DNA of 64,000 nucleotides, taken from Gammaproteobacteria bacterium. GTDB lineage: Bacteria; Pseudomonadota; Gammaproteobacteria; Eutrophobiales; Eutrophobiaceae. Location of the stretch: positions 288,519-352,518 of the forward strand of contig CBDCSC010000001.1 in the NCBI GenBank assembly GCA_965221335.1. The letters are read 5' to 3'. Below are positions 1,153 through 17,351 of this stretch, in pieces (the stretch's first letter is position 1; each line of letters starts with the position of its first letter). Position numbers and translations under genes: made by a program. Under the pieces are notes generated by a model that was not told the DNA's origin, did no database searches, and worked only from the letters and a program-made list of their open reading frames with translations.

Positions 1153-1340
1153 TCCTCTCCGGAGGATAGTCTGCATCTCTATGAAGCAACCAAGCCGGAA
1201 TCAGGCAGGTATTTCATAATTATGTGTTCCTGATAAAGTGCAAGGATTTGTTCCTTGAAATAGATTCTGAACTTCCATAGTATCTATGAGAAATAATATA
1301 CCGATTATGCCCTCAAAAACCGCCTGCCTGACTACTTGAC

Positions 1341-2144: not shown

Positions 2145-2218
2145 TTTTTTTTACTCACAAAATCAATGACATAAAGCCATTGATTTTGACGGCACATCCT
2201 TGTACCGTTGGAACCTCT

Positions 2219-2247
2219 GACTTAATCTCAGAGGCTCCCTATTAAAG
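2219..2247. repeat. Family-A intergenic palindromic element, copy 1 (GGAACCTCTGActtaatcTCAGAGGCTCC)
   Basis: A 29-bp imperfect palindrome 1 nt upstream of the hpaG1 start. Related copies are at 42013, 48255, 49083 and 60009. Confidence 0.6.
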
Positions 2248-3028: not shown

Positions 3029-3796
3029 ATGAAATCAGCACGAGTAAAAATCAACGATAAGGTGCAACAGGTCATCGTCAACGACGATTACAGCGTCGTC
3101 GATAAGGATGGCAATACCTGGCAGGAGCATGAAGTCACCTGGTTACCGCCGCCGCACGGTACCGTGCTCGCACTGGGCCTGAATTACGTGGACCACGCGG
3201 CGGAACTTGCGTTCAAGGCGCCCGAGGAGCCGCTGTTGTTCCTGAAGACGCCCAATACATTTACCGGCCACAGGCAGCGCAGCTACCGTCCGGACCATGT
3301 CGAGTACATGCATTACGAGGCGGAACTGGTCGCGGTAATAGGAAAGACGGCCCGCAAGGTAAAACAGGACGAAGCCATGGATTACGTCGGTGGTTATACC
3401 CTGTGCAACGATTACGCGGTGCGGGATTACCTGGAAAATTACTACCGGCCCAACCTGCGGGTGAAATGCCGGGATTCACTCTCCCCGCTGGGGCCGTATA
3501 TCATCGACCGGGATGATATAGACGACCCCCATGACCTGAAGCTCAGCGCCCGCGTCAACGGTGAACTGCGCCAGGAAGGGACGACACGGGACATGGTATT
3601 CAATATCCCGTTCCTGATCGAATATATCTCGGCGTTCATGACCCTGCAGCCGGGCGACATGATATCGACCGGAACGCCGAAAGGGCTCTCGGACGTACAA
3701 CCGGGGGATGAGGTCGTAATAGAAGTTGAACAAGTGGGCTGTTTGATCAATTATGTGATCAGTGAGCAGGACTATTTCGGGGGGCAGACCGTATAA
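3029..3796 (+). CDS. hpaG2: FAH-family protein, HpaG C-terminal-half homologue
   Basis: 255 aa and paralogous to the preceding ORF (GLNYVDHAAE, YVGGYTLCNDYAVRD, FMTLQPGDMISTGTP). E. coli HpaG is a single two-domain protein; here it is two genes. Confidence 0.7.
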   Translation: MKSARVKINDKVQQVIVNDDYSVVDKDGNTWQEHEVTWLPPPHGTVLALGLNYVDHAAELAFKAPEEPLLFLKTPNTFTGHRQRSYRPDHVEYMHYEAELVAVIGKTARKVKQDEAMDYVGGYTLCNDYAVRDYLENYYRPNLRVKCRDSLSPLGPYIIDRDDIDDPHDLKLSARVNGELRQEGTTRDMVFNIPFLIEYISAFMTLQPGDMISTGTPKGLSDVQPGDEVVIEVEQVGCLINYVISEQDYFGGQTV

Positions 3797-3808: not shown

Positions 3809-5332
3809 ATGACCGGACAACTCCAAGAGAATCTGAAAAAGGCCGAAGGCTATCTGCAACGTTTCAGGGATAACGTCACTGCGCATCATATCAACGGGGA
3901 GAGTCATCCCGGCGTTTCCGACGACACCTTTGACAACCTGACGCCGACTGACAATACTTCGCTGGGCCTTGTTGCCGCAGGTTCAGCACAGGATATCGAC
4001 CGCGCCTGCCGGGCCGCACAGGAGGCCTTTCCCGCCTGGTCAGCCAGCCCCGGGAAGGAACGCAAGCAAATCCTCCACCGTTTTGCTGACCTGGTCGAGC
4101 AAATGGCCGAAGAAATCGCGCTGGTCGAGAGTATGGACTGTGGCCAACCGATCCGCTTCATGCGCGCGGCCGCGGCGCGCGGCGCCGAGAACTTCCGTTT
4201 CTTTGCTGATAAGGCCCCGGAGGCCGGCAACGGCTTGTCATTGCATCAGCAGCAGCACCTGAACTATACGAAACGCACGGCCATCGGCCCGGTAGGTGTG
4301 ATCACGCCCTGGAACACGCCGTTCATGCTGTCTACCTGGAAGATTGCGCCGGCCCTGGCAGCCGGTTGCACGGTGGTGCACAAACCGGCGGAATTCAGTC
4401 CCCTGTCGGCCATGCTGCTGGCAGAGATAAGCAAGCAAGCGGGCCTGCCCGACGGTGTCTGGAACACCGTGAATGGCTTCGGAGAAAGCGCCGGCAAGGC
4501 ATTGACTGAGCATCCCGCGATCAAGGCCATCGGCTTCGTCGGCGAAACAGTGACCGGAACCCACATCATGCGCCAGGCATCTGCCACGCTGAAACGAATT
4601 CATGTGGAACTGGGCGGGAAGAACCCTGTTATCGTTTTTGATGATGCCGATTTCGAGCGCGCCCTGGACGCGGTCGTGTTTATGATCTACAGCCTGAACG
4701 GGCAACGCTGTACTTCGAGCAGCCGCCTGCTGGTACAGGACGGGATCGCCGGCAGGTTCCTCGACGCGCTGGAACAACGGGTCAATAACATCAGGGTGGG
4801 GCATCCGCTGGACCCCGCCACGGAACTGGGACCGCTGATCCATCCCAGCCACCTGGACAAGGTAATGGGTTACGTGGATGCGGCGCGGGATGAAAACGCG
4901 ATCATTGCCGCAGGAGGCATGCGGGTGACTGACCTGGGACCCGGCAATTACCTCAGACCCACCCTGTTCCGCAACGCCGCGAACAATATGAAGATTGCGC
5001 GCGAAGAGATCTTCGGGCCAGTGCTGACTGCGATCCGCTTTACCGATGAAGCGGAAGCCGTGACCCTGGCTAATGATACGTCCTATGGCCTGGCGGGATA
5101 CGTCTGGACCGGAGACTCCGGACGCGGCATCCGCATGGCAGAGGCGCTGGAAGCCGGCATGGTATGGGTCAACTCCGAGAACAACCGTAACCTGCCGTCG
5201 CCCTTCGGCGGCATGAAGCAGAGCGGCATAGGCCGCGACGGCGGCGACTACAGCTTCGAATTTTACATGGAAACCAAGAACATATGCATTGCTCACGGTA
5301 CGCATAAAGTGCCTGTGCTGGGAATGCGATGA
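3809..5332 (+). CDS. hpaE: NAD-dependent aldehyde dehydrogenase (5-carboxymethyl-2-hydroxymuconate semialdehyde dehydrogenase)
   Basis: 507 aa. ALDH motifs are present (ELGGKNP, catalytic Cys in GQRCTSSSR, EEIFGPV) and the gene lies in hpa operon context. Confidence 0.8.
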   Translation: MTGQLQENLKKAEGYLQRFRDNVTAHHINGESHPGVSDDTFDNLTPTDNTSLGLVAAGSAQDIDRACRAAQEAFPAWSASPGKERKQILHRFADLVEQMAEEIALVESMDCGQPIRFMRAAAARGAENFRFFADKAPEAGNGLSLHQQQHLNYTKRTAIGPVGVITPWNTPFMLSTWKIAPALAAGCTVVHKPAEFSPLSAMLLAEISKQAGLPDGVWNTVNGFGESAGKALTEHPAIKAIGFVGETVTGTHIMRQASATLKRIHVELGGKNPVIVFDDADFERALDAVVFMIYSLNGQRCTSSSRLLVQDGIAGRFLDALEQRVNNIRVGHPLDPATELGPLIHPSHLDKVMGYVDAARDENAIIAAGGMRVTDLGPGNYLRPTLFRNAANNMKIAREEIFGPVLTAIRFTDEAEAVTLANDTSYGLAGYVWTGDSGRGIRMAEALEAGMVWVNSENNRNLPSPFGGMKQSGIGRDGGDYSFEFYMETKNICIAHGTHKVPVLGMR

Positions 5333-5374
5333 AACAAGCCTGCTTTTGTGTTGATACATATCTGAGAGAAAAAA

Positions 5375-6223
5375 ATGGGTGAGATCGTCCTGGCCGCGAA
5401 GATAACGCATGTGCCATCCATGTACCTGTCGGAACTCCCCGGCCCCCACCAGGGTTGCCGCAAGGATGCCATCGAAGGCCACCGCGAACTCGGCCGCCGT
5501 GCCCGCGCCCGCGGCGCGGATACCGCGCTGGTGTTTGACGTGCACTGGCTGGTGAACAGCGGTTACCACATCAACAGCGGCAATCATTTCAAGGGCGTCT
5601 ACACCAGCCACGAACTCCCCCATTTCATCAAGGACATGTCCTATGAGTATGACGGCAATCCGGTCTTGGGTGACCTGGTTGCCGAATGCGCGAACGCCCG
5701 CGGGATAAACACCCGGTCGCACCATGTCGACAGCCTGACCCTTGAATACGGCACCCTGGTGCCAATGCGCTACATGAACCAGGATCGCCACTTCAAGGTG
5801 GTGTCGGTGGCGGCCTGGTGTGCCTGGCATGATTTGAATGATTCCCGAATCTTCGGCGAAGCGGTCAGGGAAGCCATAGAAAAAAGTGACAACAAGGTCA
5901 TGGTGCTGGCCAGTGGCTCACTGTCGCACCGTTTCAACGACAACTCCAATGCCGGCGATAAAATCTTCCAGATCAGCGATGAGTTTTACCAGCAGATGGA
6001 CCTGCGCGTGGTGGACTTGTGGAAGCGCGGCGATTTCAAGACCTTCACGGAGATGTTCCACGAATACGCCTACCGCTGCCACGGAGAGGGCTGGATGCAC
6101 GACACCGCGATGTTGCTGGGCATGCTGGGCTGGGACGCCTACGACCGGCCGGTGGAGATTATCAGTGATTATTTTCCCAGTTCCGGCACCGGCCAGATCA
6201 ACGCGGAATTTCCGGTGGGCTGA
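5375..6223 (+). CDS. hpaD: 3,4-dihydroxyphenylacetate 2,3-dioxygenase (class III extradiol, LigB family)
   Basis: 282 aa, very similar along its length to recalled E. coli HpaD (AAKITHVPSMYLSELPG, FDVHWLVNSGYHIN, LASGSLSHRF, YGEGWMHDTAMLLGMLGWD). Confidence 0.85.
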   Translation: MGEIVLAAKITHVPSMYLSELPGPHQGCRKDAIEGHRELGRRARARGADTALVFDVHWLVNSGYHINSGNHFKGVYTSHELPHFIKDMSYEYDGNPVLGDLVAECANARGINTRSHHVDSLTLEYGTLVPMRYMNQDRHFKVVSVAAWCAWHDLNDSRIFGEAVREAIEKSDNKVMVLASGSLSHRFNDNSNAGDKIFQISDEFYQQMDLRVVDLWKRGDFKTFTEMFHEYAYRCHGEGWMHDTAMLLGMLGWDAYDRPVEIISDYFPSSGTGQINAEFPVG

Positions 6224-6225
6224 CT

Positions 6226-6624
6226 ATGCCCCATTTCATCCTGGAGTATTCAGCCAATCTCGATGATGACCTGGACCTGGACGGCTTGTTCAAGGCCTTG
6301 CATGGCACCGCAATGGAGACCGGCGTGTTCGCCCTCGGCGGCGTGCGCTTTCGCGCCCACCGCTGCGAGCATTACCTCGTTGCCGACGGTGATCCGGACA
6401 ATGCTTTCGTGCACCTGACCGCGCGCATCGGCCGCCGGCGCGACCCGGATGTCCGGCGCGAGATCGGTGAGCAGCTATTCAACTCACTGGTGGAGCACCT
6501 TGATGGTCTCTACCGGCAGCGGCCGCTGGCAATCTCGTTCGAGGTGACCGAGCTCACCTTCGGGCTGAGTTTTCGAAAGAACAATATCCACGACAAGATA
6601 AAGCAGAAACAGGGCGCAGGCTGA
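6226..6624 (+). CDS. hpaF: 5-carboxymethyl-2-hydroxymuconate isomerase
   Basis: 132 aa. The N-terminus MPHFILEYSANL matches the CHMI family (MPHFIVECSDN in E. coli). It is separated from hpaD by 2 nt (stop codon 6221-6223, start 6226). Confidence 0.8.
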   Translation: MPHFILEYSANLDDDLDLDGLFKALHGTAMETGVFALGGVRFRAHRCEHYLVADGDPDNAFVHLTARIGRRRDPDVRREIGEQLFNSLVEHLDGLYRQRPLAISFEVTELTFGLSFRKNNIHDKIKQKQGAG

Positions 6625-6634
6625 ACAATCCAAT

Positions 6635-7369
6635 ATGTCCCTGTTTGAACCGTTCGCGATCCTGATCATCCTGGGTTCATTTTTTTCATCGTTTATCAGC
6701 GCAGCCTTTGCGGTGGGCGGTGGTTTCATCATGCTTGCCATTGTCTCCAGCGTGCTGCCGATCACCGCGGCAGTGCCGCTGCACAGTTGCATGATGCTGG
6801 GATTGTCTCTGGGCAGGTCCTGGTATTTCCGCAAAGACATATGCCAGCGCATCGTCTGGCCGTTCCTGCTTGGGGCCTTAATTGGCGTCGCTGTCGGGGG
6901 CAGGCTGTATTTTGACCTGTCGGAATTTTTGCTCAGCCTGGTCATCGGCCTGTTGATTCTTGGCGCGGTGTGGATGCCACAACAGGTAGGATGGGGCATG
7001 CGGTTTCCGGTGCCGTTTTTCTGGGTCGGCATCGCACACGCATTCGTGTCCACGCTGTTTTCGTTCGGCGGCCTGTTTCAGCCGCTGATGATGCGCGCGG
7101 CGTTGTCGAAATTGCAGATCGTCGGCACATTGGCGGCAGGGCTGACGTTCATGAACATACTCAAGATCTGCGCATACAGTTACTACGGCTTTGATTACAG
7201 TCCGTATTTCATGGTCGTCGTGGCCGCCATTCTGGCCGCCGTCCCTGGCGCGTACCTGGGAAAAAAGCTATTGCACCGGATCCCAGAAGACCGGTTCAGG
7301 CTCATATTCAGCCTCATCATGACCTGTTTTGCGCTGAGATTGCTCTACCGCGCATGGATTCTTGTTTAG
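6635..7369 (+). CDS. TSUP-family (TauE/SafE-like) membrane permease
   Basis: 244 aa, highly hydrophobic with multiple predicted TM helices and two internal repeats typical of 4-toluene sulfonate uptake permease proteins. It is the last gene of the hpa cluster. Confidence 0.55.
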   Translation: MSLFEPFAILIILGSFFSSFISAAFAVGGGFIMLAIVSSVLPITAAVPLHSCMMLGLSLGRSWYFRKDICQRIVWPFLLGALIGVAVGGRLYFDLSEFLLSLVIGLLILGAVWMPQQVGWGMRFPVPFFWVGIAHAFVSTLFSFGGLFQPLMMRAALSKLQIVGTLAAGLTFMNILKICAYSYYGFDYSPYFMVVVAAILAAVPGAYLGKKLLHRIPEDRFRLIFSLIMTCFALRLLYRAWILV

Positions 7370-7639
7370 TCCGCATGCCTCAACCCGGACATATTGTTTT
7401 CTAGGATTGTAACTCATTGTTTTATATTAGAATAATTGTTAAACTAGATTGAGCGTAAGCATATAGGAAGCGGATTCAAACAATGCTGTGCGCACTTGGA
7501 CGCGCTAACGGCTGGAAGCATACTCGAATTATTCGTGTGTAGTAGTAGCGTACCAAGTGAGAAAAACAGGTAGGAATGCTCAGCATCCGGACGCTTCGCC
7601 ACGTCAACGCCGATAACACACCTCAACGTATCCAACTTT

Positions 7640-8110
7640 AGGGCTTCACTCCAATTGACACTCCACTGCCTCAGTGCTCGTAGAGCGCGGTGAAGGCGTG
7701 CCGTTGAGGCCGAGTCTACGGGCACTGAGGCCACCTCGAACTGTGGCGCGATGCTACTCGCGGAGCCCGACCGCCGGGTTGATGCCTCATCCTGAGCCAA
7801 GGGGACCTCAACAACCACGGCCGGCTGCAGCTGGACCCCGCGCTGTAGGCGGCTGCAATGCGGGACGGGGTGGTGGCCAGCCCGTCGACGCTGTGCCGGT
7901 TGAAGAGCAAGTCCACGGTTGTGGAGGCGCTGGTGCTGCAGGGAGCTGTTCGATCGGTTCGTGAAGGTCCATACCGTGCCGCCGGTGCCCAGACAAAAGC
8001 ATGAGGGTTGGGAGCGGTGCGCCAGCAGACCGTGTCGGGTCACCGAACACGATAGGCGAGGAACCCAATACGGGGAGATTGACCCAGAGCAGTTAAACCG
8101 AATGTGAACT
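7640..8110 (+). pseudogene. degraded transposase-like remnant (IS4/IS5-type N-terminal region); no intact ORF
   Basis: The ~900-bp stretch between the TSUP gene and the CBASS genes has only short, mutually overlapping ORFs. One frame reads ...LQLDPAL*AAAMRDGVVASPSTLCRLKSKSTVVEALVLQGAVRSVREGP..., which resembles the (A/S)xPSTLxRF region near the N-terminus of IS4/IS5-group transposases and is broken by stop codons. The match is recalled from memory. Confidence 0.3.
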
Positions 8111-8283
8111 CTTCGCGAGACATCATGCACCTAGTTTCCGTAGGGCTTGAAATGAACGGGACAAGTCCCCATTTACTCAAGGAGTAATCAACAGACACGG
8201 GGTAGCTCTATGCTCAGAAAACGCGTGACCGAAAACGGCAAGCTGGAGGGCCCCATTTGGAAATAACCTAGATTAAAGCAGAG

Positions 8284-9150
8284 ATGGGAATCCCGGAGCA
8301 ACAACTTCAAACGTGGTCGCACTTGGGCGCGCAACAGAGCTCCCAGGCCACATATGCCTCGGTTAACAATGCCCTGCAGAACTACGACTGGCCAGTCGAG
8401 ATGGGCAAGCCTGAAGTTTACCTACAAGGCTCTTACCCGAACCACACCAACATCTACGGCGATAGCGACGTAGACGTCGTCGCTGAGACCTCAAGCGTTT
8501 TCTATCACAACGTGCCGGATGATCAGCGCAAACAATTCGGGTTGCCAGAACGCGGTACTGGAGCATATGGATGGCGAGAGTACAAGGATGAAGTGCTCGC
8601 TGCTCTATGTCAATACTACGGACACAACGTCGTCACCCCTCACAACAAGTGCATCAAGATTACTGGTGACAACAATCGCTTGAATGCTGATGTCGTTCCA
8701 TGCGTCCAGTATCGCAAGTACTACACATATAGATCCTTCGCAAAAGGCGTAACGTTCTGGACACGGGATGACAACAATCAAGTGGTCAATTTCCCCAAAA
8801 TCCACCTGTCGAAGGGCGCAGAGAAGAACTCAAGTTGCGACCAGCTCTACAAGCCCAACATCCGCGTCATAAAGAACGCTCGGAACCGTGCCAAGAACGA
8901 TTTCCCGTCTTACTTCCTCGAATGTCTGCTTTACAACGTGCCGAACCAGATATTTACTATCAGCTTCTCCGATACATTCTTCGAGGTGCTGACGTACCTA
9001 AACAACGCAAAAAATGACGGCTCAATGAGCGACTGGTACTGCCAGAATCGCCAGCAGAAGCTATTTGGGCATCGTAAACATCAGATCTCTATCGATGATG
9101 CTTACAAGCTGATTGCTGACCTGATCGACCTTTGGAACGATTGGGAATGA
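8284..9150 (+). CDS. cGAS/DncV-like nucleotidyltransferase (CD-NTase, SMODS) of a CBASS system
   Basis: 288 aa. It has the GS-x12-DxD nucleotidyltransferase motif (QGSYPNHTNIYGDSDVDVV) and a downstream hDhVP third-Asp motif (NADVVPCV). It overlaps the patatin effector gene by 19 nt. Confidence 0.7.
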   Translation: MGIPEQQLQTWSHLGAQQSSQATYASVNNALQNYDWPVEMGKPEVYLQGSYPNHTNIYGDSDVDVVAETSSVFYHNVPDDQRKQFGLPERGTGAYGWREYKDEVLAALCQYYGHNVVTPHNKCIKITGDNNRLNADVVPCVQYRKYYTYRSFAKGVTFWTRDDNNQVVNFPKIHLSKGAEKNSSCDQLYKPNIRVIKNARNRAKNDFPSYFLECLLYNVPNQIFTISFSDTFFEVLTYLNNAKNDGSMSDWYCQNRQQKLFGHRKHQISIDDAYKLIADLIDLWNDWE

Positions 9151-10064
9151 GTAGGCCGCACTTCGTCTTATCTCTTGACGGAGGAGGTTCTCTTGGTGTT
9201 TATACGCTCGGTGTACTCGTCGAAGTAGAACGTATGCTCGACCGCCCCCTTCACGAAGTATTCGAACTCATTTATGGTACGAGCACTGGTGCAATCATCG
9301 CGTCCATGATTGCGCTAGGCGAGGACGTCGAGACTACCATCCAGAATCGCTATTTCGAGATCATTCCTGATGTGATGGGTAAATCTTTCGCTTGGAGTAG
9401 GAGCCGTGCGCTACATCGCCACGCTTCGGAGATATACCAAGGCAAGAAGTTCGATGCGTTCCTTACCAACGTCGGGATCGTTGCGACCCACGTTGAATAC
9501 AACCGGCCGATGGTATTCAAACGAACAGTCAGTCAGGCGCACGGTCGCACGTCGAGCTTCTCACCTGGGTTCGGTTGCACGATCGCTGATGCAGTCATAG
9601 CGTCCTCGGCTGCCTACCCAATCTTTTCAAAGAAGCGTATAGATACGGTAAATAGTGGTGTCCGGACCGTTGTTGACGGTGGGTATTGCGGCAACAATCC
9701 CGCGTTATTCGCCCTAACTGATGCGCTTGGGCCGCTTGGATTCTCTCCGGGTGATGTGCGGCTTCTTAGTATCGGTACAGGGCAGTTCCCTGAGCGCTTT
9801 CGCCTCCTTACACGGGCGCTGACGCTGTTTGCCCCGACGATAATGACGCTTCTTAAGACTAGTTCCAACACCGTTGAAGTTCTAGAACAACTCTTGTTCA
9901 AAGATGTCCGCACTCTACGGATCAATGATGGGCAGACGGGCAGTAGATACAAAACTGACTTAATTGAGAGTGACGTAGCGCTACTGAAACAGATCTTTGA
10001 CCTAGGTCGGGAATCGTTTGCCGTACACGAGAGCGATTTGCGCAAGTTCTTTGATATTTCCTAG
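9132..10064 (+). CDS. capV: patatin-like phospholipase, CapV-type CBASS effector
   Basis: 310 aa. It has the GGGxxG oxyanion motif (LDGGGSLG), the GxSxG nucleophile elbow (GTSTG) and a DGG catalytic Asp motif (VVDGGYCGNNP). Confidence 0.75.
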   Translation: MERLGMSRPHFVLSLDGGGSLGVYTLGVLVEVERMLDRPLHEVFELIYGTSTGAIIASMIALGEDVETTIQNRYFEIIPDVMGKSFAWSRSRALHRHASEIYQGKKFDAFLTNVGIVATHVEYNRPMVFKRTVSQAHGRTSSFSPGFGCTIADAVIASSAAYPIFSKKRIDTVNSGVRTVVDGGYCGNNPALFALTDALGPLGFSPGDVRLLSIGTGQFPERFRLLTRALTLFAPTIMTLLKTSSNTVEVLEQLLFKDVRTLRINDGQTGSRYKTDLIESDVALLKQIFDLGRESFAVHESDLRKFFDIS

Positions 10065-10367
10065 CACATGTCGAAGCAATCATGAGCAACTGCTATCGAG
10101 CCATGCGCCGTCTGTTCTTGGCGGATCTGAACCAATCATATAACGCTCACGTAGTCCGTGTAGGAAGGGACCAGAGTTAGTCAATGCGTAGGCAAATGGA
10201 TCCCAGCAGTTCGGGTGCGTGTTACACGCCAATTCGGCCGCTGATTCCACGGCAAACCGGCCACCCATCCCACGGCAAGCCGGCCGTTCTATGTCGAGAA
10301 TGCTCAAGAGGGATGGAGCAGCAGTGGGTTGCCAGGCTGCAGGCAAGCATGTAGCTCGTCCTCCATT

Positions 10368-10679
10368 TCAGGGTGTGACATTGTGTCCCTCGGCGCACTC
10401 CCGGCGCGGCTTCTCTTTCACGCACCGCCAGATCATCTCGCTGTCGATCCAGATACACTTGGTACATGTGGTATCGACGGCAATGAAATCGGATTCTCTC
10501 CGGTCCACTGGATTCGGCAATGTAGTCGGCATGCTGCCTTCGGTCATTTTCTCGATTCCTTTGTCAATTCTCGAAACATATCCGTGGGCATGATGCCCCT
10601 GCCAAAATGAGTCACGCCAGAACACGAAAATGGTTTTCGTTACTCTATGGTATCCGGGCACCCATCTTGGGAGTGCCAC
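10368..10679 (-). CDS. hypothetical small Cys-containing protein downstream of the OLD-like ATPase
   Basis: 103-aa ORF overlapping the 3' end of the ATPase gene by 40 nt (10640-10679; the two are in different frames, so this may be chance rather than operon structure). It contains CxxC-x10-C-x8-C. I recognise no family, and several other ORFs overlap it. Confidence 0.2.
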   Translation of the reverse strand: MALPRWVPGYHRVTKTIFVFWRDSFWQGHHAHGYVSRIDKGIEKMTEGSMPTTLPNPVDRRESDFIAVDTTCTKCIWIDSEMIWRCVKEKPRRECAEGHNVTP

Positions 10680-12109
10680 AAGCTATTGATGACCTCGTCT
10701 CCTAAGAATTCTGCCAATTGGCCAGTTGGTCTTTGTCGGCCAATTGTCTGAGCAGTTCTGATTGTCCAGTGCACGCTCTTTGGATCCAAAATAGAGTTTA
10801 GTTCACCTATTAGCTCCTTGATGTCCACAATTTGTCGATCCCAGTCCGGAGCCTTCTTCAGCTTTTGTTCCTTATTTCCATATTTGCTAGCATCCTTGAC
10901 AATCTTGGCGGAAGCATCCGCCCAATTAGTCCCCATGGCTATCAAGACCTCATCGGTCAGGTACAGGTTCTCTGTCTCGTGACACGCCAACTGAATGAAC
11001 CGAATGTGGTCTTGCGGGCACTGCGGTGAAGGCATTGGCTTCCCCTTGTCGGCGTCGATCAATGCAAAACCCGACAACTCAGCACCATCCTCTCGCAGAG
11101 CCGCAAACATCTGTTCTAAAGACCGTTGATATCGTTTTATCTCGTTACCGTTGGACGGGAGGACTGCAAACGACACAATATGATGTCTGGGTATCTGACT
11201 CCAAATTCTATAGTCGTCATCACCTTCGACCAGAAGCAATGGCACACCGAATAGAGGTCCCATTAGAGCGTGTCCGCCCAAGACTGCTGAGAGTTCTTTC
11301 GTTACAGCTGTAAAAGGCTGTGCTGCGAAATCCGACTTTGTACGATCAAGATAGAGAACACTTGTGTCGCTGTCCCCGAATTGGCCTAGTGCAGCCATGA
11401 ATGTTGTGCTGTGCGTAGCTACGAGAATTTGGAGACGATATTGTCGTGCCGCCTGAACCAGGAAGTCGGAGAAGCGTACCTGTAGGTCAGGGTGGATATG
11501 GGCGTCAGGTTCGTCAATTAGAATGAGACGTTTGTCTCTTTCGGCAATTTCCCATATCGCCCCCATTGTCAAAACGTCTAGACCAATCGTGAGTAGCTGA
11601 GCTTCACCGCTACTCAACTCATCAATAGATCCAACTTGGCTTTGGTCAACAGACCTCATCAATTTGTATGGGGGGTTTGCGACGCCATCCAAGGCTAACT
11701 CAAAGTCTGGAATTAACTGCCCCATCAATTTCTCTAGGTCTTGCGGGTTGCCCGGAAGTTTGTCGGCCCGAATGTTTCCGCGCGCTGTGAAATATGCTTG
11801 AACTCGCGACACGATATGTTGCCGATACTCGTTTAGGTAGTTCTTCTGGCTAACTTTGCGCCGTTGTAGTGCGCTGAGTTGAGTGCGCAAGTAGTTTGGC
11901 TCGAAATCAAGAGTTCCCGTTCTCTCGGGAACCACATAGTGGATGCTATCACTGTCTTTATCACGAAGTGCGCGCAACATTAGACTTTTCCCCGAGCCAT
12001 TTTTCCCGAAGACGACGGTAATCGTATTTAAGTTCTTCAACATCCAGGGCTTACCGCCTAATGTACCTGGCTGGTCGATTGAAACGTTCTGAAAATATGG
12101 ACTTGTCAT
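10640..12109 (-). CDS. OLD-family ATP-dependent nuclease (ABC-type ATPase with C-terminal TOPRIM-like domain)
   Basis: 489 aa. It has Walker A (GKNGSGKS), an ABC signature-like motif (LSSGEAQLL), Walker B (LILIDEPDAHIHP) and an H-loop (VATHS). The C-terminal region has a TOPRIM-like Glu (LLLVEGDDDYRIW) followed ~60 aa later by DxD (FALIDADKG). Confidence 0.6.
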   Translation of the reverse strand: MTSPYFQNVSIDQPGTLGGKPWMLKNLNTITVVFGKNGSGKSLMLRALRDKDSDSIHYVVPERTGTLDFEPNYLRTQLSALQRRKVSQKNYLNEYRQHIVSRVQAYFTARGNIRADKLPGNPQDLEKLMGQLIPDFELALDGVANPPYKLMRSVDQSQVGSIDELSSGEAQLLTIGLDVLTMGAIWEIAERDKRLILIDEPDAHIHPDLQVRFSDFLVQAARQYRLQILVATHSTTFMAALGQFGDSDTSVLYLDRTKSDFAAQPFTAVTKELSAVLGGHALMGPLFGVPLLLVEGDDDYRIWSQIPRHHIVSFAVLPSNGNEIKRYQRSLEQMFAALREDGAELSGFALIDADKGKPMPSPQCPQDHIRFIQLACHETENLYLTDEVLIAMGTNWADASAKIVKDASKYGNKEQKLKKAPDWDRQIVDIKELIGELNSILDPKSVHWTIRTAQTIGRQRPTGQLAEFLGDEVINSLWHSQDGCPDTIE

Positions 12110-12274
12110 GCGCGAATTCCAGCGATCTGCGCAGAGCTTTCAACAAGGCACTAGTGCACTGATCGCGTTGATTTGATGATTAAAATGTCGCCCGAAATCA
12201 CTACTGTCTGGTCAATAGTTGAGTTAATTCAATTGCGTAGGATTTACATGAACATCACGAGTGTAATTAAATTT

Positions 12275-12900
12275 TGTCATTTTGCACCGTAATAGAGCCG
12301 GCCATTTTCACTTTAATGGAGCCACTTTAAGGCGCTGATTTTCGAGTTCAGACACGGGTATTATTTCTCTGTTTCGGCCTGCTTTGCAAGCGGTTTATCG
12401 ATGGGCCTCGGTGAGCGGTAACTGTTCCCATCCAAGACCACCCGGTAGGCGTTGTGGCGTAACCGGTCAAGGGTGGCGGCGCCAAGCAACCGGTTCGGGA
12501 AGGCATCGCCCCATTCGCCGAAGTCCAGGTTGCTGGTGATGACGGTAGCCGCCCGCTCATAGCGCTCTGCGACCAGGTCATGGAAGTCTTCATCCTGGGG
12601 CGGTCGCAGGGGTTTGAGGCCGAAGTCATCAATAATCAACACGGGCGTTTTGGCCAGGCTCTGGAACTGTCGCTCATAGGAGTCGGTGGCTCGGGCCGCA
12701 TGCAGCGTGCCCAGCAACCGGGATTGCGTCATAAACATCACATCGTGGCCCTGTCGCACGGCAGCATGACCGATGGCTTGGGCGATATGGCTCTTGCCGG
12801 TGCCACAGGGGCCGGCAATCAGGACGGCCACGCGCTCTTCGATGAAGCGACCGGTGACCAACTCATAGGGCAGCGCTGCGTTGATGTTGGGGTTGAAATC
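12275..12900 (-). mobile_element. istB: IS21-family remnant: terminal inverted repeat plus the 3' portion of istB
   Basis: TGTCATTTTGCACCG begins at 12275 and is followed by direct sub-repeats (GAGCCGGCCATTTTCACTTTAATGGAGCCACTTTAAGG), as in IS21-type multi-repeat ends. The ORF segment from about 12361 to 12900 encodes an IstB-like C-terminal ~175 aa (VLIAGPCGTGKSH Walker A, LIIDDFG Walker B). The IstB N-terminus and all of istA are missing. Confidence 0.55.
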
Positions 12901-13791
12901 AACGTCCGCGCTCGAGGCCTGAATGGACTCCCAGAGCAGGTGTGCGTAGCGCGCGGTCGAGTCGACTTTCCGGTGCCCTAGCAGTTTGCCGATCATCGAC
13001 AGGCCCTCGCCAATCGCGATCGCGTAAGAGGCGTAGGCGTGCCGCAGGTCGTGCAACCGCACATCGTCGAGGCCGGCGCGTTCCCGGATCCGGTCCCATA
13101 AAGTGCTGACGTTCACCTGGCGAGTGCTCTTCTTCCTGCCGGGAAACACCCACGGATTGTCGGTTGCCCTCAGAAGATCGGCCAGCACGTCCGCGACGGC
13201 CGGAGGAAGCGGTACGACGCAGGGACCCGTCTTGCTGTCGCGCAGCCGCATTTTGAACCGGCAGATCAGCTTGCATGGGTTTCGCCCCGGTGGACGCATC
13301 TGCCAGAGTTCCGCGAGGTCGAACATCTTCACCAGGATGTTCACGCAACTGTTGGTCGTGGTGGGCACCCGGCGCAACTTGTACTGGAACTCGAAGATGT
13401 CGTTGCGTTCCACCCCGGCCACCTTGAGTTACCCGAGGCGCGGCACGATGTGGTTCCGCAGCATCAGCCAGTAGGTATTGACCGTACCCGGCTTGCAGTG
13501 CGCCGCGACGTGCTCGCGCATGTAGCATCCGGCGAGATCCGAAACGGTCGGATCGGGCGCGGGCGCAATCTCGCCATGGTGGCCCACGGTCACGCGCTTC
13601 GACGTGCCGTTAGCACGCGTCTGAATGACGTACACTTTGCGTCCCGATGGATAGACGCTCACGCCGAAGCCCGGCAACTCGCGGTCCCAGAACACCGCGT
13701 CCTTGCCGTCGACCGCCAGCCGGTCCACGATTCGCTTGGAGAGGGTGAGGTACTGGCGTTGGGGCATGTCGTCGTTCGTCGGCAGGACCAT
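12901..13791 (-). pseudogene. int: P4-type tyrosine integrase, inactivated by an in-frame TAA at 13429-13431 and truncated or fused at the 3' end with the istB fragment
   Basis: The 13429-13791 ORF encodes an N-terminal arm/DUF4102-like domain (LTLSKRIVDRLAVDGKDAVFWDRELPGFGVSV). It continues in the SAME frame after a single TAA into the catalytic region (HDLRHAYASYAIAIGEGLSMIGKLLGHRKVDSTARYAHL), which then runs directly into IstB-like sequence. Confidence 0.6.
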
Positions 13792-13988
13792 TCCAGCCAG
13801 TCCCGACGGGACGTACTTACGTAAGCATACAGAACGCGACTGACTTGAAATCTGAGGGTATTACAGCGTATCGACAGTGTAGATGCAAGGCATACGGCGA
13901 CGGAGATGAAATCAATTTATAGAATATTTACAATGCTTTATGCAAACTCTGCGCACGAGAGCGCACTCGAGTCGGAGAGGTAGAAATA

Positions 13989-14691
13989 TCAAACTCGGTT
14001 AACCCGCAAATCGGACAGATTCCCGGTTGGGAACGGACCAACCCGTCCGTCCACCAGGTTGAGTATATTGTCCGACAATGACTGCGCCCGCAATCGGTCG
14101 TGGGCGCTGAAAATAATAGTTTTGGTCCTGGCATCCCGTTGTTCAGCAATCCAGGTCTCGATTTCAATGACTGTGACCTCATCCAGGTAAGTGAATGGTT
14201 CATCCATGATGACCACCTCGGGTTGTGGAGCCAGGGCCCGGGCCAACGCCACTTTTTGGATTTCACCGCCCGACAGCTTGCCGGCATCCCGAGCCAAAAG
14301 GCCTGTCAGTCCCAGTTCTCCAGCGACGGCATCCACAGCAACGTCGATCGCGCGTCGTGTTGCGCCCCTTAACTTCAGCCCCAGGCCGATATTGTCCCGG
14401 ACGGACATTTTCATCAGGTAGGGTTTCTGCTGCACATACCCCACCTGGCGGCGCAGGCGCGTGCCTAGCGTTGCTGACGCCGGCTTGCCGCGGAACAATA
14501 TCGTGCCCGTGTCCGGCTTTCTCAGGAAAGCCAGCATGTCAAACAGCGTGCTTTTCCCTGAACCGTTGGGCCCGATCACAGCGGTGACCCGGTTGTGGTC
14601 GATATGAAGTTCATCCAGGTCGAGCGCTTTCCTGCTGCCATAGGAAAATGTCAGCCCGGAGATTTGATACAGATGGTCCACCGGCGCGCTA
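13989..14691 (-). CDS. ABC transporter ATP-binding protein (tungstate/molybdate-type, TupC-like)
   Basis: Walker A GPNGSGKS, signature LSGGEIQKV, Walker B VVIMDEP and an H-loop (SAHD). The likely start is the GTG giving VDHLYQISGL, which would overlap the permease stop. The longer listed ORF extension overlaps the permease and is discounted. Confidence 0.6.
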
Positions 14692-14697
14692 TCCCTG

Positions 14698-15387
14698 TCA
14701 ACCCATGGCCTGGAATCGCTGTACCACGAAATTGACCAGAAAGGCTGTTGCCAGCAACAATACTCCCAGAGCCAGCGCAAACTCGAATTCACCCTTGCTG
14801 GTTTCCAGCGCAATCGCAGTCGTCATGGTGCGGGTAAAACCTTCGATATTGCCGCCCAACATCATTGCGATACCCACTTCGCCGATGGCCCGGCCAAAAC
14901 CGGCAACCATTGCGGCAGCCAGCGCATATCTCACTTCGTTCACATAGATTGCGCACTGCTGCAAGGTGGATGCGCCCAGGGCCTGACTGGTGGGCAGCAG
15001 CCGCGGGTCGGCCCCGGAGGCCGCGGCAATGGACAGGTTCCAGATAATCGGCAGTATCAACAGCGTCTGGCCGATGATGATGGCGCTGATCGTATACAAC
15101 AGCCCCAAGTGGCCCAAGGCTCCCTGTCTGGTCAGCAGGCCGTACAGCAACAGGCCCACCACCACCGTGGGCAGGGCCATCAGGGTATTCAGCATCTGCT
15201 GCAACAGGCGCTTGCCGGGAAATTCCTTCAGCACCACCAGGATGCCCAGGGGGATGCCGAAAAGCGATGCCAGCGCCACCGCAACCACCGATATCTGCAG
15301 CGAAGTCCAAACGACCGTATAGATTTCCCGGTCAAAACTGACAATCAGCGCCAGTGCCGCGCTGAACGCCGCGGAAAAGAAATCCAT
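14698..15387 (-). CDS. ABC transporter permease (TupB-like, COG4662-type)
   Basis: 229 aa, multi-pass hydrophobic, with an EAA-like loop region (AMMLGGNIEGF). It is cotranscribed with the ATPase. No substrate-binding protein gene is adjacent. Confidence 0.55.
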   Translation of the reverse strand: MDFFSAAFSAALALIVSFDREIYTVVWTSLQISVVAVALASLFGIPLGILVVLKEFPGKRLLQQMLNTLMALPTVVVGLLLYGLLTRQGALGHLGLLYTISAIIIGQTLLILPIIWNLSIAAASGADPRLLPTSQALGASTLQQCAIYVNEVRYALAAAMVAGFGRAIGEVGIAMMLGGNIEGFTRTMTTAIALETSKGEFEFALALGVLLLATAFLVNFVVQRFQAMG

Positions 15388-15394
15388 CGCAGTT

Positions 15395-15757
15395 TCAGGC
15401 GGCAGTGAGTCCCAGGATCGCCAGCAACAACGCGATCAATGCCAGCACAAAGGCAAACGCAGACCGTTGCTGCGCCCGCTGCAGGGACTCTGCCAGCGCC
15501 TCGTTCTGACGCGCAAGCTGCTCTATGAGTCGGAGTTGCTCGACACTGGCTTGATCCATTGAGTCCAGGCGCGCCTGCAGCCTGCCGATCACTTCTTCCA
15601 GGTTGTCCAGCGTAACCGGCACCTGTTCGGCGGGCGCGGGCCTGTTCTGTTCCCGTTCTCTGATTAAATCGACCAGCTTGCCGGCTGCCTGGATGATCAC
15701 GGGGGCGGAATTCAGCAGCGTACCGATGGTAAAAGGATTCATGAACTTTTTAATCAC
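15395..15757 (-). CDS. hypothetical small protein, coiled-coil with a C-terminal TM helix
   Basis: 120 aa with a Leu/Gln/Arg-rich coiled-coil segment (LDSMDQASVEQLRLIEQLARQNEALAESLQRAQQ) and a hydrophobic tail (AFAFVLALIALLLAILGLTAA). Confidence 0.35.
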   Translation of the reverse strand: MIKKFMNPFTIGTLLNSAPVIIQAAGKLVDLIREREQNRPAPAEQVPVTLDNLEEVIGRLQARLDSMDQASVEQLRLIEQLARQNEALAESLQRAQQRSAFAFVLALIALLLAILGLTAA

Positions 15758-15871
15758 TCTGATTTCTAACTTAAGGAATTACACGCAAGTGCGCTTGAAA
15801 AATTTTATCTCATCCCCATTTTTTATACCAGTAACACAGTTAACCCGAACAACCCCTTTGGAGGTGACAAC

Positions 15872-16297
15872 ATGGTCAGATTATTCACAAGTCCGGTTGA
15901 CAGCCTTTTGTCATTGCAGAAATCGCTGTCGGATACGATGCTGAGCGACTGGTTCGGTTCAGGACTCAGCAGCCGCGGCGGTTTCCCACCGATCAACATT
16001 TTTCAGGTGGACGGCGAGTACGCAATCATTGCTGAACTGCCCGGCGTCAATAAGGACAGTATCGATATTGATGTGCAGCGCAACCGCGTCAGGATTTCAG
16101 GCAATAAGGAAGTAAATTACGGTGAAGGCACCAGCCTGCACCGGCGTGAACGGCAGACCGGTGCGTTTGACCGCACCTTTGCCACGCCGTTTGAAATAGA
16201 TGCTGAAAAGGTCAAGGCCGATTACCGTGACGGTATCCTGGCGCTGTCCTTGCCACGCGCCGAGCAGGACAAGCCGCGCTCGATCAGTATTTCCTGA
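15872..16297 (+). CDS. Hsp20/alpha-crystallin small heat-shock protein
   Basis: 141 aa with an alpha-crystallin domain (FDRTFATPFEIDAEKVKADYRDGILALSLPR). Confidence 0.8.
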   Translation: MVRLFTSPVDSLLSLQKSLSDTMLSDWFGSGLSSRGGFPPINIFQVDGEYAIIAELPGVNKDSIDIDVQRNRVRISGNKEVNYGEGTSLHRRERQTGAFDRTFATPFEIDAEKVKADYRDGILALSLPRAEQDKPRSISIS

Positions 16298-16302
16298 AGC
16301 GT

Positions 16303-16322
16303 TATTTCAGCAAGCTCTGAAC
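16303..16322. repeat. Family-B half-element (AAGCTCTGAACAAGTCCATA), lacking the inverted partner
   Basis: It shares 18/19 nt with the left half of the other family-B copies and sits 6 nt after the first hsp20 stop. Confidence 0.4.
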
Positions 16323-16364
16323 AAGTCCATAACTACGATCCAATATTTCAGTTAGGAGGATATC

Positions 16365-16763
16365 ATGGCAAAGAATCAAGATTTAACTCCGCAAGAGAAG
16401 AAAGAACTCGATGCAAAGGAGGAAAAGACCTATGCCGGCAAATTTTACATTCCCGGCACCGACATTTTCGAGAGTGGTGATGCAATCACCATGGCGATGG
16501 AAATGCCCGGCGTGAGCCGAGACAATATCGACATCAAACTGGAGAAGCGCCAGCTTTCGGTCCAGGGCCAAATCGATTTCGATAACTATACCGACTTCAA
16601 GCCGGTCTACACGGAATACAATGTCGGCCACTTCAGCCGCAATTTTACCCTGTCAAGCGAGATCGACACGGATAATATCAAGGCAAATGTCGCCGACGGT
16701 GTACTGACCCTGATACTTCCGAAAGCGAAGGAAACCCAGCTCAGGAAGATCCAGGTCAACTAG
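16365..16763 (+). CDS. Hsp20/alpha-crystallin small heat-shock protein (paralogue)
   Basis: 132 aa (FSRNFTLSSEIDTDNIKANVADGVLTLILPK). Confidence 0.8.
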   Translation: MAKNQDLTPQEKKELDAKEEKTYAGKFYIPGTDIFESGDAITMAMEMPGVSRDNIDIKLEKRQLSVQGQIDFDNYTDFKPVYTEYNVGHFSRNFTLSSEIDTDNIKANVADGVLTLILPKAKETQLRKIQVN

Positions 16764-16781
16764 AAATAACCCACCCAACCG

Positions 16782-16814
16782 ACGGCGGCTATATTCGACA
16801 GGGATAGCCGCCGT
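16782..16814. terminator. candidate bidirectional intrinsic terminator between the hsp20 pair and vsr
   Basis: Perfect 11-bp inverted repeat ACGGCGGCTAT / ATAGCCGCCGT with an 11-nt loop, then TTAAATCATT. It lies between convergent genes. Confidence 0.45.
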
Positions 16815-16892
16815 TAAATCATTGTGTGAGTCTAGGAAGGTTAAACGGGGATGCCTGGAGATAGAACCCAGATCCCGTTTAGAAATTATATT

Positions 16893-17351
16893 TCAATGTG
16901 TCCTTTGTAGTAGTTTTCCAAGACGATTAATTTTTCTTCTGCTAATTTCATTATCCTTTAGTTCACATTCCCAAATTCGCAATACTTTCCATCCCCTTTT
17001 TTTAATCGTCCTATTAACCAATTTATCGCGTTTTTTATTGGCATTTATTTTTTTTATCCAAAACTCGTTGTTGTTTTCTGGAATTTGACCATGCTTTGGA
17101 CAATCATGCCAAAAACAGCCGTCGACAAATATCGCTACTTTACTATTTGGAAATGTAATATCTGGTTTGCCAAAAATAGGATATCTCCGACGCCAGCCTA
17201 CCAATCGTTTCTGTTTTAATAGTTCGATCAATTTCCCTTCGGTTGATTTATTTCCAGAGGAACGCACTCTACCCATCAGCCATGAGCGTTTTTCCTTTGA
17301 ATAAACATCAACCATTGTTTTGATGAGGGGCTTTTTTCTCGCACATATCAA
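16893..17351 (-). CDS. vsr: very-short-patch repair endonuclease
   Basis: 152 aa with the diagnostic Vsr motif FVDGCFWHDCPKHG. It overlaps the upstream GHKL gene by 44 nt and lies inside the low-GC block. Confidence 0.8.
   Translation of the reverse strand: MICARKKPLIKTMVDVYSKEKRSWLMGRVRSSGNKSTEGKLIELLKQKRLVGWRRRYPIFGKPDITFPNSKVAIFVDGCFWHDCPKHGQIPENNNEFWIKKINANKKRDKLVNRTIKKRGWKVLRIWECELKDNEISRRKINRLGKLLQRTH

What the first reader, a model, noticed from the sequence alone, without database searches (positions are those of the whole stretch)
7380..13800. Decayed mobile/defense island: transposase remnant, IS21 end, and a P4-type integrase killed by a single in-frame TAA and 3' fusion to an istB fragment
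Several IS and integrase remains flank the CBASS and OLD genes. First, a frame-broken transposase-like stretch lies at 7640-8110. Second, an IS21-family terminus at 12275 (TGTCA... with internal direct sub-repeats) is followed only by the 3' ~60% of istB. Third, the integrase ORF is interrupted by one TAA at 13429-13431 in an otherwise continuous frame, and its catalytic C-terminus (HDLRH...ARYAHL) reads straight into IstB-like sequence. No tRNA or att repeat is visible next to the integrase. The picture is of an integrative element that delivered the defense genes and was then immobilised by IS insertion and deletion.
Basis: partly seen in the sequence, partly recalled or inferred. Interest (0 to 1): 0.5.

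Follow-up and report, generated by a model that had tools for sequence, protein, structure and literature searches.

The report
Decayed defence island with dead integrase
A 6.7-kb horizontally acquired island carrying two intact anti-phage gene sets is littered with wrecked mobility genes (a multiply broken integrase fused to a piece of an IS21 element, and a stub of an IS1380 transposase), which is an ordinary example of how defence islands become stranded in a chromosome.

Summary
Window 7370-14053 (6,684 bp) is absent from a 95-96% identical genome, where TauE and an ABC-ATPase gene lie 17 nt apart.

The island holds:
- an IS1380-family transposase stub (7694-7990);
- an intact two-gene CBASS-like cassette;
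- an intact ABC-ATPase with Toprim-like motifs;
- the last 632 bp of a 2.6-kb IS21-family element, with its right terminus exactly at 12275;
- an integrase pseudogene (12901-13791).

The integrase is not killed by "a single TAA". Against ~390-aa homologues it also lacks 25 aa and 65 aa through two in-frame deletions. The second deletion removes the first catalytic arginine. It has also lost its last ~12 codons at the istB junction. In all 10 homologue contexts this integrase type is followed by a second, paralogous recombinase, which is missing here. No tRNA gene and no att repeat were found.

Whether the integrase element delivered the defence genes is unproven. The CBASS cassette is 87% identical in DNA to one in an unrelated genome that has no such integrase nearby, so the island looks like a mosaic. 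This is ordinary biology and of low novelty.

The parts
7370..14053 (.). The island. It is a 6,684-bp insertion/deletion difference from a 95-96% identical genome (L004, OZ244905.1). It lies between the convergent TauE (6635-7369, +) and ABC-ATPase (-) genes.
   Evidence: blastn: L004 10731 matches window 7365 and L004 10764 matches window 14054. Sequences read. The 28 nt present at the empty site do not occur in the island.
7452..7610 (+). Non-coding segment 'X', shared with the region upstream of the CBASS cassette in another genome (L017/L018). It contains a weak second copy of a 19-nt motif (7454-7472) that is otherwise found upstream of the integrase.
   Evidence: blastn: 78% identity over 95 nt; alignment A5. 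The motif was found and is not significant against a profile (E = 16).
7694..7990 (+). IS1380-family transposase stub covering roughly aa 16-147 of a protein of about 450 aa. It has at least two frameshifts, a TAG at a Gln codon and about 33 codons deleted. The DDE catalytic region is absent.
8081..10216 (+). CBASS-like two-gene cassette: nucleotidyltransferase/cyclase at 8284-9150 and patatin phospholipase effector at 9132-10064. Both ORFs are intact.
   Evidence: PADLOC cyclase E 5e-94 and phospholipase effector E 2e-102. NCBIfam DS2_2 and DS2_1 anti-phage models, both below their cut-offs. 87% DNA identity to L017/L018.
10640..12109 (-). Intact 489-aa ABC-type ATPase (AAA_21/AAA_15). Its C-terminal half carries Toprim-like motifs (VEGDDD and DAD), giving an OLD- or fused-PARIS-like architecture.
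   Evidence: Pfam. The best PADLOC match is AriAB, E 6e-22, covering aa 84-389. PDB AriA and OLD match only at E ~2e-3. Motifs read. The C-terminal half has no Pfam hit.
12275..12906 (-). The right-hand 632 bp of an IS21-family element. It comprises the terminal repeat region with sub-repeats (12275-12360) and the 3' ~70% of istB (12361-~12900). There is no istA and no left end anywhere in the 64 kb.
12901..13791 (-). Pseudogene of a P4-type (arm-binding) tyrosine integrase with four lesions: a 25-aa in-frame deletion at ~13563/13564, a TAA at 13429-13431, a 65-aa in-frame deletion at 13251/13252 that removes catalytic Arg I, and loss of the last ~12 codons at the junction with istB (12900-12906).
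13792..13995 (-). Conserved non-coding region upstream of the integrase. It is homologous to the int1-upstream region of related elements and includes the 19-nt motif at 13820-13838.
   Evidence: Alignment A4. nhmmer profile built from 7 homologue loci: E 3e-27 at 13762-13986. The motif is present in 10 of 10 homologue loci.
13989..14053 (-). Island-encoded tail of 21 codons (VDGRVGPFPTGNLSDLRVNRV*). It replaces the last three codons (ARC*) of the ABC-ATPase gene seen at the empty site.

Best explanation
Window 7370-14053 is a mosaic, horizontally acquired defence island that can no longer move. It sits between the convergent ends of a TauE gene and an ABC-ATPase gene.

Its two defence modules have intact reading frames:
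- a CBASS-like cyclase plus patatin effector;
- an OLD/PARIS-like ATPase with Toprim-like motifs.

All three mobility genes are remnants.

Inferred history (steps inferred, order uncertain):
1. An element carrying a P4-type integrase arrived at the 3' end of the ABC gene. In relatives this integrase is the first gene of a tandem int1-int2 pair.
2. An IS21-family element inserted downstream of it, in the same orientation.
3. An illegitimate deletion, with at most about 3 nt of microhomology, joined integrase codon ~297 to IS21 position ~1971. It removed the integrase C-terminus, any int2, istA and the 5' 30% of istB.
4. The integrase remnant then decayed further: a 75-nt deletion, a 195-nt deletion and one nonsense substitution.
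5. On the other side, an IS1380-family element inserted between the CBASS cassette and its upstream segment, and was reduced to a frameshifted N-terminal stub.

With no catalytic Arg I, no partner recombinase and no att repeats, excision by the island's own machinery is not possible. The defence genes are therefore fixed in place.
For: - Empty site in a 95-96% identical genome.
- Four integrase lesions relative to eight ~390-aa homologues at 65-72% identity. Pfam PF00589 matches only model positions 67-168. Lesions seen at the DNA level.
- The IS21 fragment is mapped against an intact 2,602-bp relative, and its terminus is confirmed by three independent flanks. There is no istA or left end in 64 kb.
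- IS1380 stub.
- Tandem int1-int2 in 10 of 10 homologue contexts. Only one integrase remnant is present in the window.
- Intact defence ORFs with strong PADLOC matches.
- An independent low-coverage assembly (L027) reproduces window 3904-12557 with no substitutions.
- No tRNA gene and no direct repeat of 8 nt or more at the island edges.
Against: - Only one assembly covers the int/istB junction, the TAA and the two deletions. L027 stops at 12557.
- Polarity is not established, because there is no outgroup. The island could be ancestral and lost in L004. The other relatives found share only 36-42% TauE identity.
- The island edges are not clean: 28 nt of the empty site are missing and the ABC gene's 3' end is replaced. 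The present edges may therefore be secondary deletion endpoints.
- All three large integrase lesions keep the reading frame (about 1/27 by chance). I cannot explain this.
- That an int2 was ever present here is inferred from relatives only.
Confidence: 0.85

Rival explanations
1. The defence genes were not cargo of the integrase element. The CBASS block, the ATPase module and the integrase/IS21 block arrived separately and accumulated at one permissive intergenic site, a defence-island hotspot. In this reading the integrase remnant is only a neighbour.
For: - The CBASS cassette plus its upstream segment X is 78-87% identical in DNA to L017/L018. There it sits beside TIR/Thoeris-like genes with no integrase and no OLD-like ATPase.
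- A 71%-identical cyclase sits on a small plasmid.
- G+C is about 49% for the defence genes and about 60-65% for the IS21 and integrase blocks.
- A second, unrelated R-M island lies 2.7 kb away and is also absent from L004.
Against: - The whole 6.7 kb is a single insertion/deletion difference from L004, with no intermediate state seen.
- Cargo of integrative elements is commonly mosaic, so different G+C does not exclude joint delivery.
Confidence: 0.4
2. The integrase-istB junction, or the TAA and the deletions, are artefacts of a long-read metagenome assembly: a chimeric join or consensus errors.
For: - The source looks like a long-read MAG. The sister contig L027 has 1.75x coverage and 14 indels against the window.
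- No second assembly covers 12557-14053.
Against: - L027 shows indels only and no substitutions, whereas the TAA is a substitution.
- Deletions of 75 and 195 nt and a junction inside two unrelated genes are not typical consensus errors.
- The flanks on both sides of the junction are collinear with the rest of the island and with L004 beyond it.
Confidence: 0.05
3. The 353-aa chimeric ORF (12361-13422) is expressed and has been co-opted. It combines a partial integrase catalytic domain with the IstB AAA+ domain, and the lesions are in frame because the reading frame is under selection.
For: - All three large lesions keep the frame.
- The IstB part keeps its Walker A (GPCGTGKS) and Walker B (IIDDFG) motifs and has no internal lesion.
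- The source annotation calls a 350-aa ORF here (P0074).
Against: - The TAA splits off the DNA-binding N-terminus.
- Catalytic Arg I is gone.
- IstB lacks its N-terminal 82 aa.
- P0074 is a cluster of one sequence, so there is no conservation to show selection.
- In-frame by chance is about 4%, which is not negligible.
Confidence: 0.03

Closest known systems
IS21-family insertion sequences (istA-istB; the nearest annotated plasmid copies are 'ISBmu1 family' IstB genes at ~71% nt identity; the nearest unannotated intact copy is L001, 2,602 bp, at 89.6%)
   Same: - The terminus has the TGTCA...TGACA form, with repeated ~20-nt sub-sites inside the end.
- The IstB AAA+ helper is present (Pfam E 9e-44).
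- The stop codon of istB lies about 86 nt from the terminus, as in L001.
   Different: - Only 24% of the element is present (positions 1971-2602).
- istA, the left end and the first ~30% of istB are missing.
- No target-site duplication can be assessed.
- The NCBIfam IS21_help_AAA score (190.6) falls just below its cut-off (200) because of the truncation.
P4-type (arm-binding domain) tyrosine integrases of genomic islands and ICEs (Pfam Arm-DNA-bind_3 + Phage_int_SAM_3 + Phage_integrase)
   Same: - Same three-domain architecture.
- HxxR, the second His and the Tyr nucleophile (HDLRH...GH...ARYAHL) are retained.
- The gene sits near the edge of an island.
   Different: - It is a pseudogene: Arg I is deleted, part of the arm-binding/linker region is deleted, there is a stop codon and the C-terminus is lost.
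- There is no tRNA target. The island lies at the 3' end of a protein-coding gene.
- Its closest homologues occur as tandem int1-int2 pairs, which is not the classical single-integrase P4 arrangement.
Multi-recombinase elements: GInts (ginABCD, PMC5385486), RIT trios and Tn554-like pairs (PMC3414803)
   Same: - Relatives of this integrase carry more than one tyrosine recombinase in tandem near the start of the element.
   Different: - GInts have three recombinases plus GinD, and RITs have three.
- Tn554 has TnpA and TnpB, per PMC3414803, and also TnpC, from my own knowledge.
- The relatives seen here have exactly two paralogous P4-type integrases. In three of the ten contexts a divergent vapBC-like operon lies next to them.
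- None of this survives in the window.
IS1380-family insertion sequences
   Same: - The N-terminal ~130 aa of the transposase are recognisable (GGAMLLAEADRR..., EDLNDH..., ASPSTLCRFE motifs).
   Different: - The DDE catalytic part is absent.
- No inverted repeats were identified.
- The stub is frameshifted and interrupted by a stop codon.
Type I CBASS with a patatin (CapV-like) effector
   Same: - A cyclase and a patatin phospholipase lie in a two-gene operon with overlapping ORFs.
- No Cap2/Cap3-like ORF is present.
   Different: - The best NCBIfam models are 'DS2_1/DS2_2 anti-phage' proteins, and both scores are below their cut-offs.
- The Pfam SMODS score is just below its threshold.
- Function was not tested.

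Membership tests
IS21 family | Terminal inverted repeats of the form 5'-TG...CA-3' with multiple internal sub-repeats | tested here: met
   The right end is met. Similarity to two independent copies stops at ...TGACA, window 12275. Two sub-repeats are present where 0.04 are expected by chance. The left end is absent from the 64 kb.
IS21 family | istA (DDE transposase) followed by istB (AAA+ helper) | tested here: not met
   The 3' 70% of istB is present (Pfam E 9e-44; NCBIfam 190.6 bits against a cut-off of 200). tblastn with IstA of L001 finds nothing in the window. This is a fragment derived from a member, not an element.
IS21 family | Target-site duplication flanking both ends | not testable with these tools
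   Only one end survives.
P4-type tyrosine integrase | Arm-binding + core-binding (SAM-like) + catalytic domain architecture | tested here: met
   PF13356 E 4.9e-4, PF14659 E 4e-3, PF00589 E 1.2e-11. 65-72% identity to ~390-aa proteins with that architecture.
P4-type tyrosine integrase | Complete catalytic set R-K-H-R-H/W + Y in an uninterrupted ORF | tested here: not met
   Arg I (TGCRRNE) lies inside the 65-aa deletion, the TAA is at codon 121 and the last ~12 aa are lost. It is a pseudogene of the family.
P4-type tyrosine integrase | Integration next to a tRNA/tmRNA gene with att direct repeats | tested here: not met
   ARAGORN finds 0 genes in 64 kb. No Rfam hit. No direct repeat of 8 nt or more at the island edges.
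IS1380 family | DDE_Tnp_1_4 transposase with a catalytic DDE region, bounded by short inverted repeats | tested here: not met
   Only profile positions ~4-150 of 435 are represented, in broken frames. Nine of the 22 phmmer hits were scanned and all nine are PF13701. Inverted repeats were not identified.
CBASS (type I, patatin effector) | CD-NTase cyclase adjacent to a nucleotide-activated effector | tested here: met
   PADLOC cyclase E 5e-94 and phospholipase effector E 2e-102; the ORFs overlap. Signalling and defence activity were not tested.
OLD-family nuclease / PARIS AriAB | ABC ATPase fused to a Toprim (or DUF4435) nuclease domain | tested here: inconclusive
   The ATPase domain is clear (AAA_21 E 4e-17). 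The C-terminal half has VEGDDD and DAD motifs and is partly covered by the PADLOC AriAB model. It has no Pfam hit, and PDB OLD/AriA match only at E ~2e-3.
GInt / RIT multi-recombinase elements | Three tandem tyrosine recombinases (plus GinD in GInts) | tested here: not met
   Relatives carry two recombinases, not three. The window holds one remnant.

The most novel reading that the evidence does not exclude
The integrase remnant may derive from an integrative element family that has not been described. Such a family would be defined by two tandem, paralogous P4-type integrases (int1-int2, ~50% identical, 3-40 nt apart), a conserved ~200-nt upstream region with a 19-nt motif (CGCTTTCGGNNNGCTTACG) and, in some members, a divergent vapBC operon. 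It would insert at sites other than tRNA genes. The window would hold a decayed copy. I found no named element of this type in three literature searches, which is weak evidence of absence.
Probability: 0.25. Interest if true: 0.4.

Novelty: new member of a known kind. Interest (0 to 1): 0.22.

Why it matters
It is a clean, well-delimited example of how anti-phage genes become stranded. The cargo stays intact while every mobility gene around it is destroyed by IS insertion and deletion. The empty site in a 95-96% identical genome gives the boundaries. For annotation, the 350/353-aa 'integrase-IstB' ORF should be flagged as a chimeric pseudogene rather than a protein. The only point that might repay further work is the tandem-integrase family seen in the relatives, not this locus itself.

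Tried and rejected
- **Left-edge motif as the element's other att arm.** A second direct copy of the 19-nt int-upstream motif lies 85 nt inside the left island edge (7454-7472). Local shuffles gave p ~0.01. The consensus finds 3 hits in the window against 0.62 expected. A profile of seven homologue upstream regions scores it only E = 16. The segment also travels with the CBASS block in an unrelated genome. I rejected it as evidence for an att arm.
- **Right island edge as the true element terminus.** I considered this because the similarity between L009 and L010 starts 276 nt upstream of int1, against 262 nt here. That break lies inside a divergent vapC-like gene, so it is not a proven end. 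Claim dropped.
- **DNA searches of the transposase region and the IS21 region against plasmids.** No match for 7380-8280. Only ~70% identity for istB.
- **tblastn with one arbitrary IS1380 transposase** found nothing at 7694-7990. Closer fragments were needed.
- **Exact-protein look-ups** for P0074 and for TauE returned nothing.
- **Metagenome scans** with the cyclase and with TauE gave nothing, or only relatives at 36-42% identity. There is therefore no outgroup for polarity.
- **Search for the 28 nt of the empty site inside the island**: absent.
- **Structure prediction of the ATPase C-terminus**: not attempted. I had no alignment depth left to support it.

Full report
**What is at the coordinates**

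ORF listing, translation and Pfam/PADLOC scans show the following layout between a TauE-family gene (6635-7369, +) and an ABC-transporter ATPase gene (-):
- a G+C-rich stretch without a credible ORF (7640-8110);
- a cyclase (8284-9150; PADLOC E 5e-94) overlapping a patatin phospholipase (9132-10064; E 2e-102);
- a 489-aa AAA_21/AAA_15 ATPase on the minus strand (10640-12109);
- one long minus-strand frame from 13791 to 12361, broken only by a TAA at 13429-13431.

The N-terminal part of that long frame is a tyrosine integrase. Its Pfam matches are Arm-DNA-bind_3, Phage_int_SAM_3 and Phage_integrase (E 1.2e-11). Its C-terminal part is IstB (PF01695, E 9e-44, model positions 46-232 of 238). ARAGORN finds no tRNA or tmRNA gene in the whole 64 kb. 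Rfam finds nothing in 6000-23000.

**The island and its empty site**

A scan of one-genome-per-species contigs with the TauE protein returned L004, a 3.54-Mb gammaproteobacterial MAG chromosome (OZ244905.1). It is 95-96% identical to the window in DNA.

Collinearity breaks at window 7365/7370 and resumes at 14054. In L004 the TauE stop and the ABC-gene stop are 17 nt apart. The island is therefore 7370-14053, 6,684 bp.

The edges are not clean:
- The 28 nt that lie between the two breakpoints in L004 are absent from the window.
- The last three codons of the ABC gene (ARC*) are replaced by 21 island-encoded codons.
- No direct repeat of 8 nt or more links the two edges.

The other TauE relatives I could find share only 36-42% identity. 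The direction of the change, gain here or loss in L004, therefore rests on the mobile-element content and not on an outgroup.

An independent 8.7-kb contig from another sample (L027, 1.75x coverage) equals window 3904-12557 with no substitutions and 14 indels. It confirms the left junction, the transposase stub, both defence modules and the IS21 end. It stops short of the integrase.

**The IS21 fragment**

The closest full-length IstB (P0121, 90% identical) lies on L001. L001 carries a complete 2,602-bp IS bounded by TGTCA...TGACA, with three ~20-nt sub-repeats at the left end and two at the right.

Window 12906-12275 matches IS positions 1971-2602 at 89.6% identity without gaps. In a three-way alignment the window, L001 and L002 are alike up to ...AAAATGACA and unrelated beyond it. 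The IS terminus is therefore exactly at 12275.

The sub-repeat consensus occurs twice in the window, both times here, against 0.04 expected by chance. No istA and no left end exist anywhere in the 64 kb. About 70% of istB survives.

**The integrase**

A search of 5.8 billion proteins gave thousands of ~390-aa homologues. The best are 65-72% identical once aligned. Against eight of them the window copy shows four lesions:
1. A 25-aa in-frame gap after ...GEIA, with its junction at ~13563/13564.
2. The TAA, at a position where homologues have Glu, Asp or Lys. The one homologue DNA that I read correctly at this position (L008) has AAG (Lys); the other three rows fell on a different site. A single substitution from GAA or AAA would give TAA.
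3. A 65-aa in-frame gap after ...CRFK, with its junction at 13251/13252. It removes the Box I segment LTGCRRNE with the first catalytic arginine. This is why Pfam's catalytic-domain model matches only from position 67.
4. Replacement of the last ~12 residues (...AKVADSIGADILE) by IstB sequence.

The junction reads GCG GAC GTT | GAT TTC AAC and can be placed at 12900-12906, with at most a few nucleotides of microhomology. The integrase would be dead even if the TAA were a sequencing error.

All three large lesions preserve the frame. By chance this would happen about once in 27, and I have no explanation for it beyond chance.

**A missing partner**

In every genomic context I retrieved for close homologues (four proteins, ten places), the integrase is followed 3-40 nt downstream by a second, paralogous integrase of ~400 aa. 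The two share about 68% nt identity in L009/L010 and roughly 40-57% aa identity between int2 and the window remnant. The window has only the one remnant, which is clearly of the int1 type.

The ~200 nt upstream of int1 are conserved across these loci and in the window (alignment A4; nhmmer E 3e-27). They include a 19-nt motif that is present in all ten loci. I could not match the pair arrangement to a named element type:
- GInts have three recombinases plus GinD (PMC5385486).
- RITs have three recombinases (PMC3414803).
- Tn554-like elements have two recombinases (TnpA and TnpB) per PMC3414803, and also TnpC from my own knowledge.
- BIMs have one recombinase plus an SMC-like protein (PMC3414803).

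Three literature searches are not proof of novelty.

**The transposase stub**

Pfam alone is weak here: PF13701 scores E 3.8e-4 and 0.016 in two frames. One arbitrary IS1380 transposase found nothing.

An exhaustive phmmer search of 1.84 billion representatives with the 73-aa frame-1 stretch gave 22 hits, the best at E 1.8e-13. Nine were scanned with Pfam and all nine are PF13701 N-terminal fragments.

tblastn with three of them places:
- aa 16-44 at 7694-7780 (frame 2);
- aa 78-132 at 7786-7950 (frame 1, with a TAG at a Gln codon).

A further FDQFVKVH-like piece at 7943-7990 was placed by eye, from the window translation and the P0249 sequence.

This is an IS1380-family stub without the DDE region.

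**Is the defence cargo linked to the integrase?**

The nearest cyclase relatives, at 83% and 71% identity, sit in other settings. One is beside TIR/Thoeris-like genes on a 2.5-Mb chromosome that also encodes GcrA and MucR (L017). The other is on a ~17-kb plasmid-like contig carrying replication, relaxase and coupling-protein genes (L020/L021). Neither has this integrase or the ATPase nearby.

Window 8081-10216 is 87% identical in DNA to L017. A further segment (7452-7546, extending to about 7610 in the alignment) is 78% identical to the region upstream of L017's cassette. The IS1380 stub occupies the variable gap between the two.

G+C is about 49% across CBASS and the ATPase gene, against about 60-65% across the IS21 and integrase blocks. 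The island is therefore a mosaic. Joint delivery by the integrase element is possible but not shown.

**The ATPase**

The N-terminal half is an ABC-type ATPase. The C-terminal half has Toprim-like VEGDDD and DAD motifs. The best PADLOC model is the fused PARIS AriAB (E 6e-22, covering aa 84-389). Pfam sees nothing in the C-terminal 240 aa, and solved OLD/AriA structures match only at E ~2e-3. 'OLD-like' describes the architecture and is not a tested family membership.

**Verdict**

This is a real, well-delimited and thoroughly decayed defence island. It is ordinary in kind: an IS-mediated wreck of an integrative element around intact defence genes. It is of low interest apart from the tandem-integrase family seen in the relatives.

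Noticed in passing
window 16762-22464: A second island of about 5.7 kb, absent from the 95-96% identical genome L004 (87 nt lie there instead). It encodes a BbrUII/HgiDII-family restriction enzyme with a C-terminal Ymh domain (17308-18963), a Dcm-type C5 cytosine methylase (18953-19993) and a 782-aa protein with a weak GHKL-ATPase match (19990-22338). All three are on the minus strand, just downstream of two Hsp20 genes. No mobility gene was seen in it.
   Followed up: partly
L007-L016 (loci of integrase homologues): Close homologues of the integrase always occur as a tandem pair of paralogous P4-type integrases (int1-int2, 3-40 nt apart), seen in 10 of 10 contexts. A conserved ~200-nt region lies upstream of int1 and contains the motif CGCTTTCGGNNNGCTTACG. 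In L007 and L009 a divergent PIN gene with a small upstream ORF (vapBC-like) lies next to the pair, and L010 has a vapC-like gene start there. I could not match this to a named element type.
   Followed up: partly
window 12361-13791 (-): All three large lesions of the integrase keep the reading frame: a 75-nt deletion, a 195-nt deletion and the junction with istB. About 1 in 27 would be expected by chance. This is unexplained.
   Followed up: partly
window 7454-7472 and 13820-13838: A direct repeat matching at 16 of 19 positions (CGTAAGCATAnAGnAnGCG) lies near both ends of the island. The right copy is the conserved int1-upstream motif. The left copy lies in a segment that is shared with the CBASS locus of an unrelated genome (L017 9130-9224). 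It is locally suggestive (p ~0.01) but not significant against a profile (E = 16).
   Followed up: yes
window 10065-10640: About 575 nt between the convergent patatin and ATPase genes have no recognisable gene. A 103-aa minus-strand ORF (10368-10679) overlaps the end of the ATPase gene, contains four Cys, and has no Pfam or PADLOC hit. A short imperfect direct repeat (CCACGGCAArCCGGCC) lies at about 10250-10290.
   Followed up: partly
window 1332-2140: This FAA-hydrolase-family gene (1341-2144) is only 77% identical in DNA to L004, while its flanks are 96-97% identical. Two further FAA-hydrolase paralogues follow it (2248-3009 and 3029-3796). This may reflect gene replacement or fast evolution.
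   Followed up: no
window 2188-2241 / 41991-42044 and 36418-36450 / 41957-41989: Short dispersed repeats of 33-54 nt at 87-94% identity, each containing a palindromic core. They look like REP-type intergenic repeats.
   Followed up: no
window 60338-63908: Two tandem paralogous genes about 1,983 nt apart, 73-77% identical over several blocks (repeat families D1-D4).
   Followed up: no
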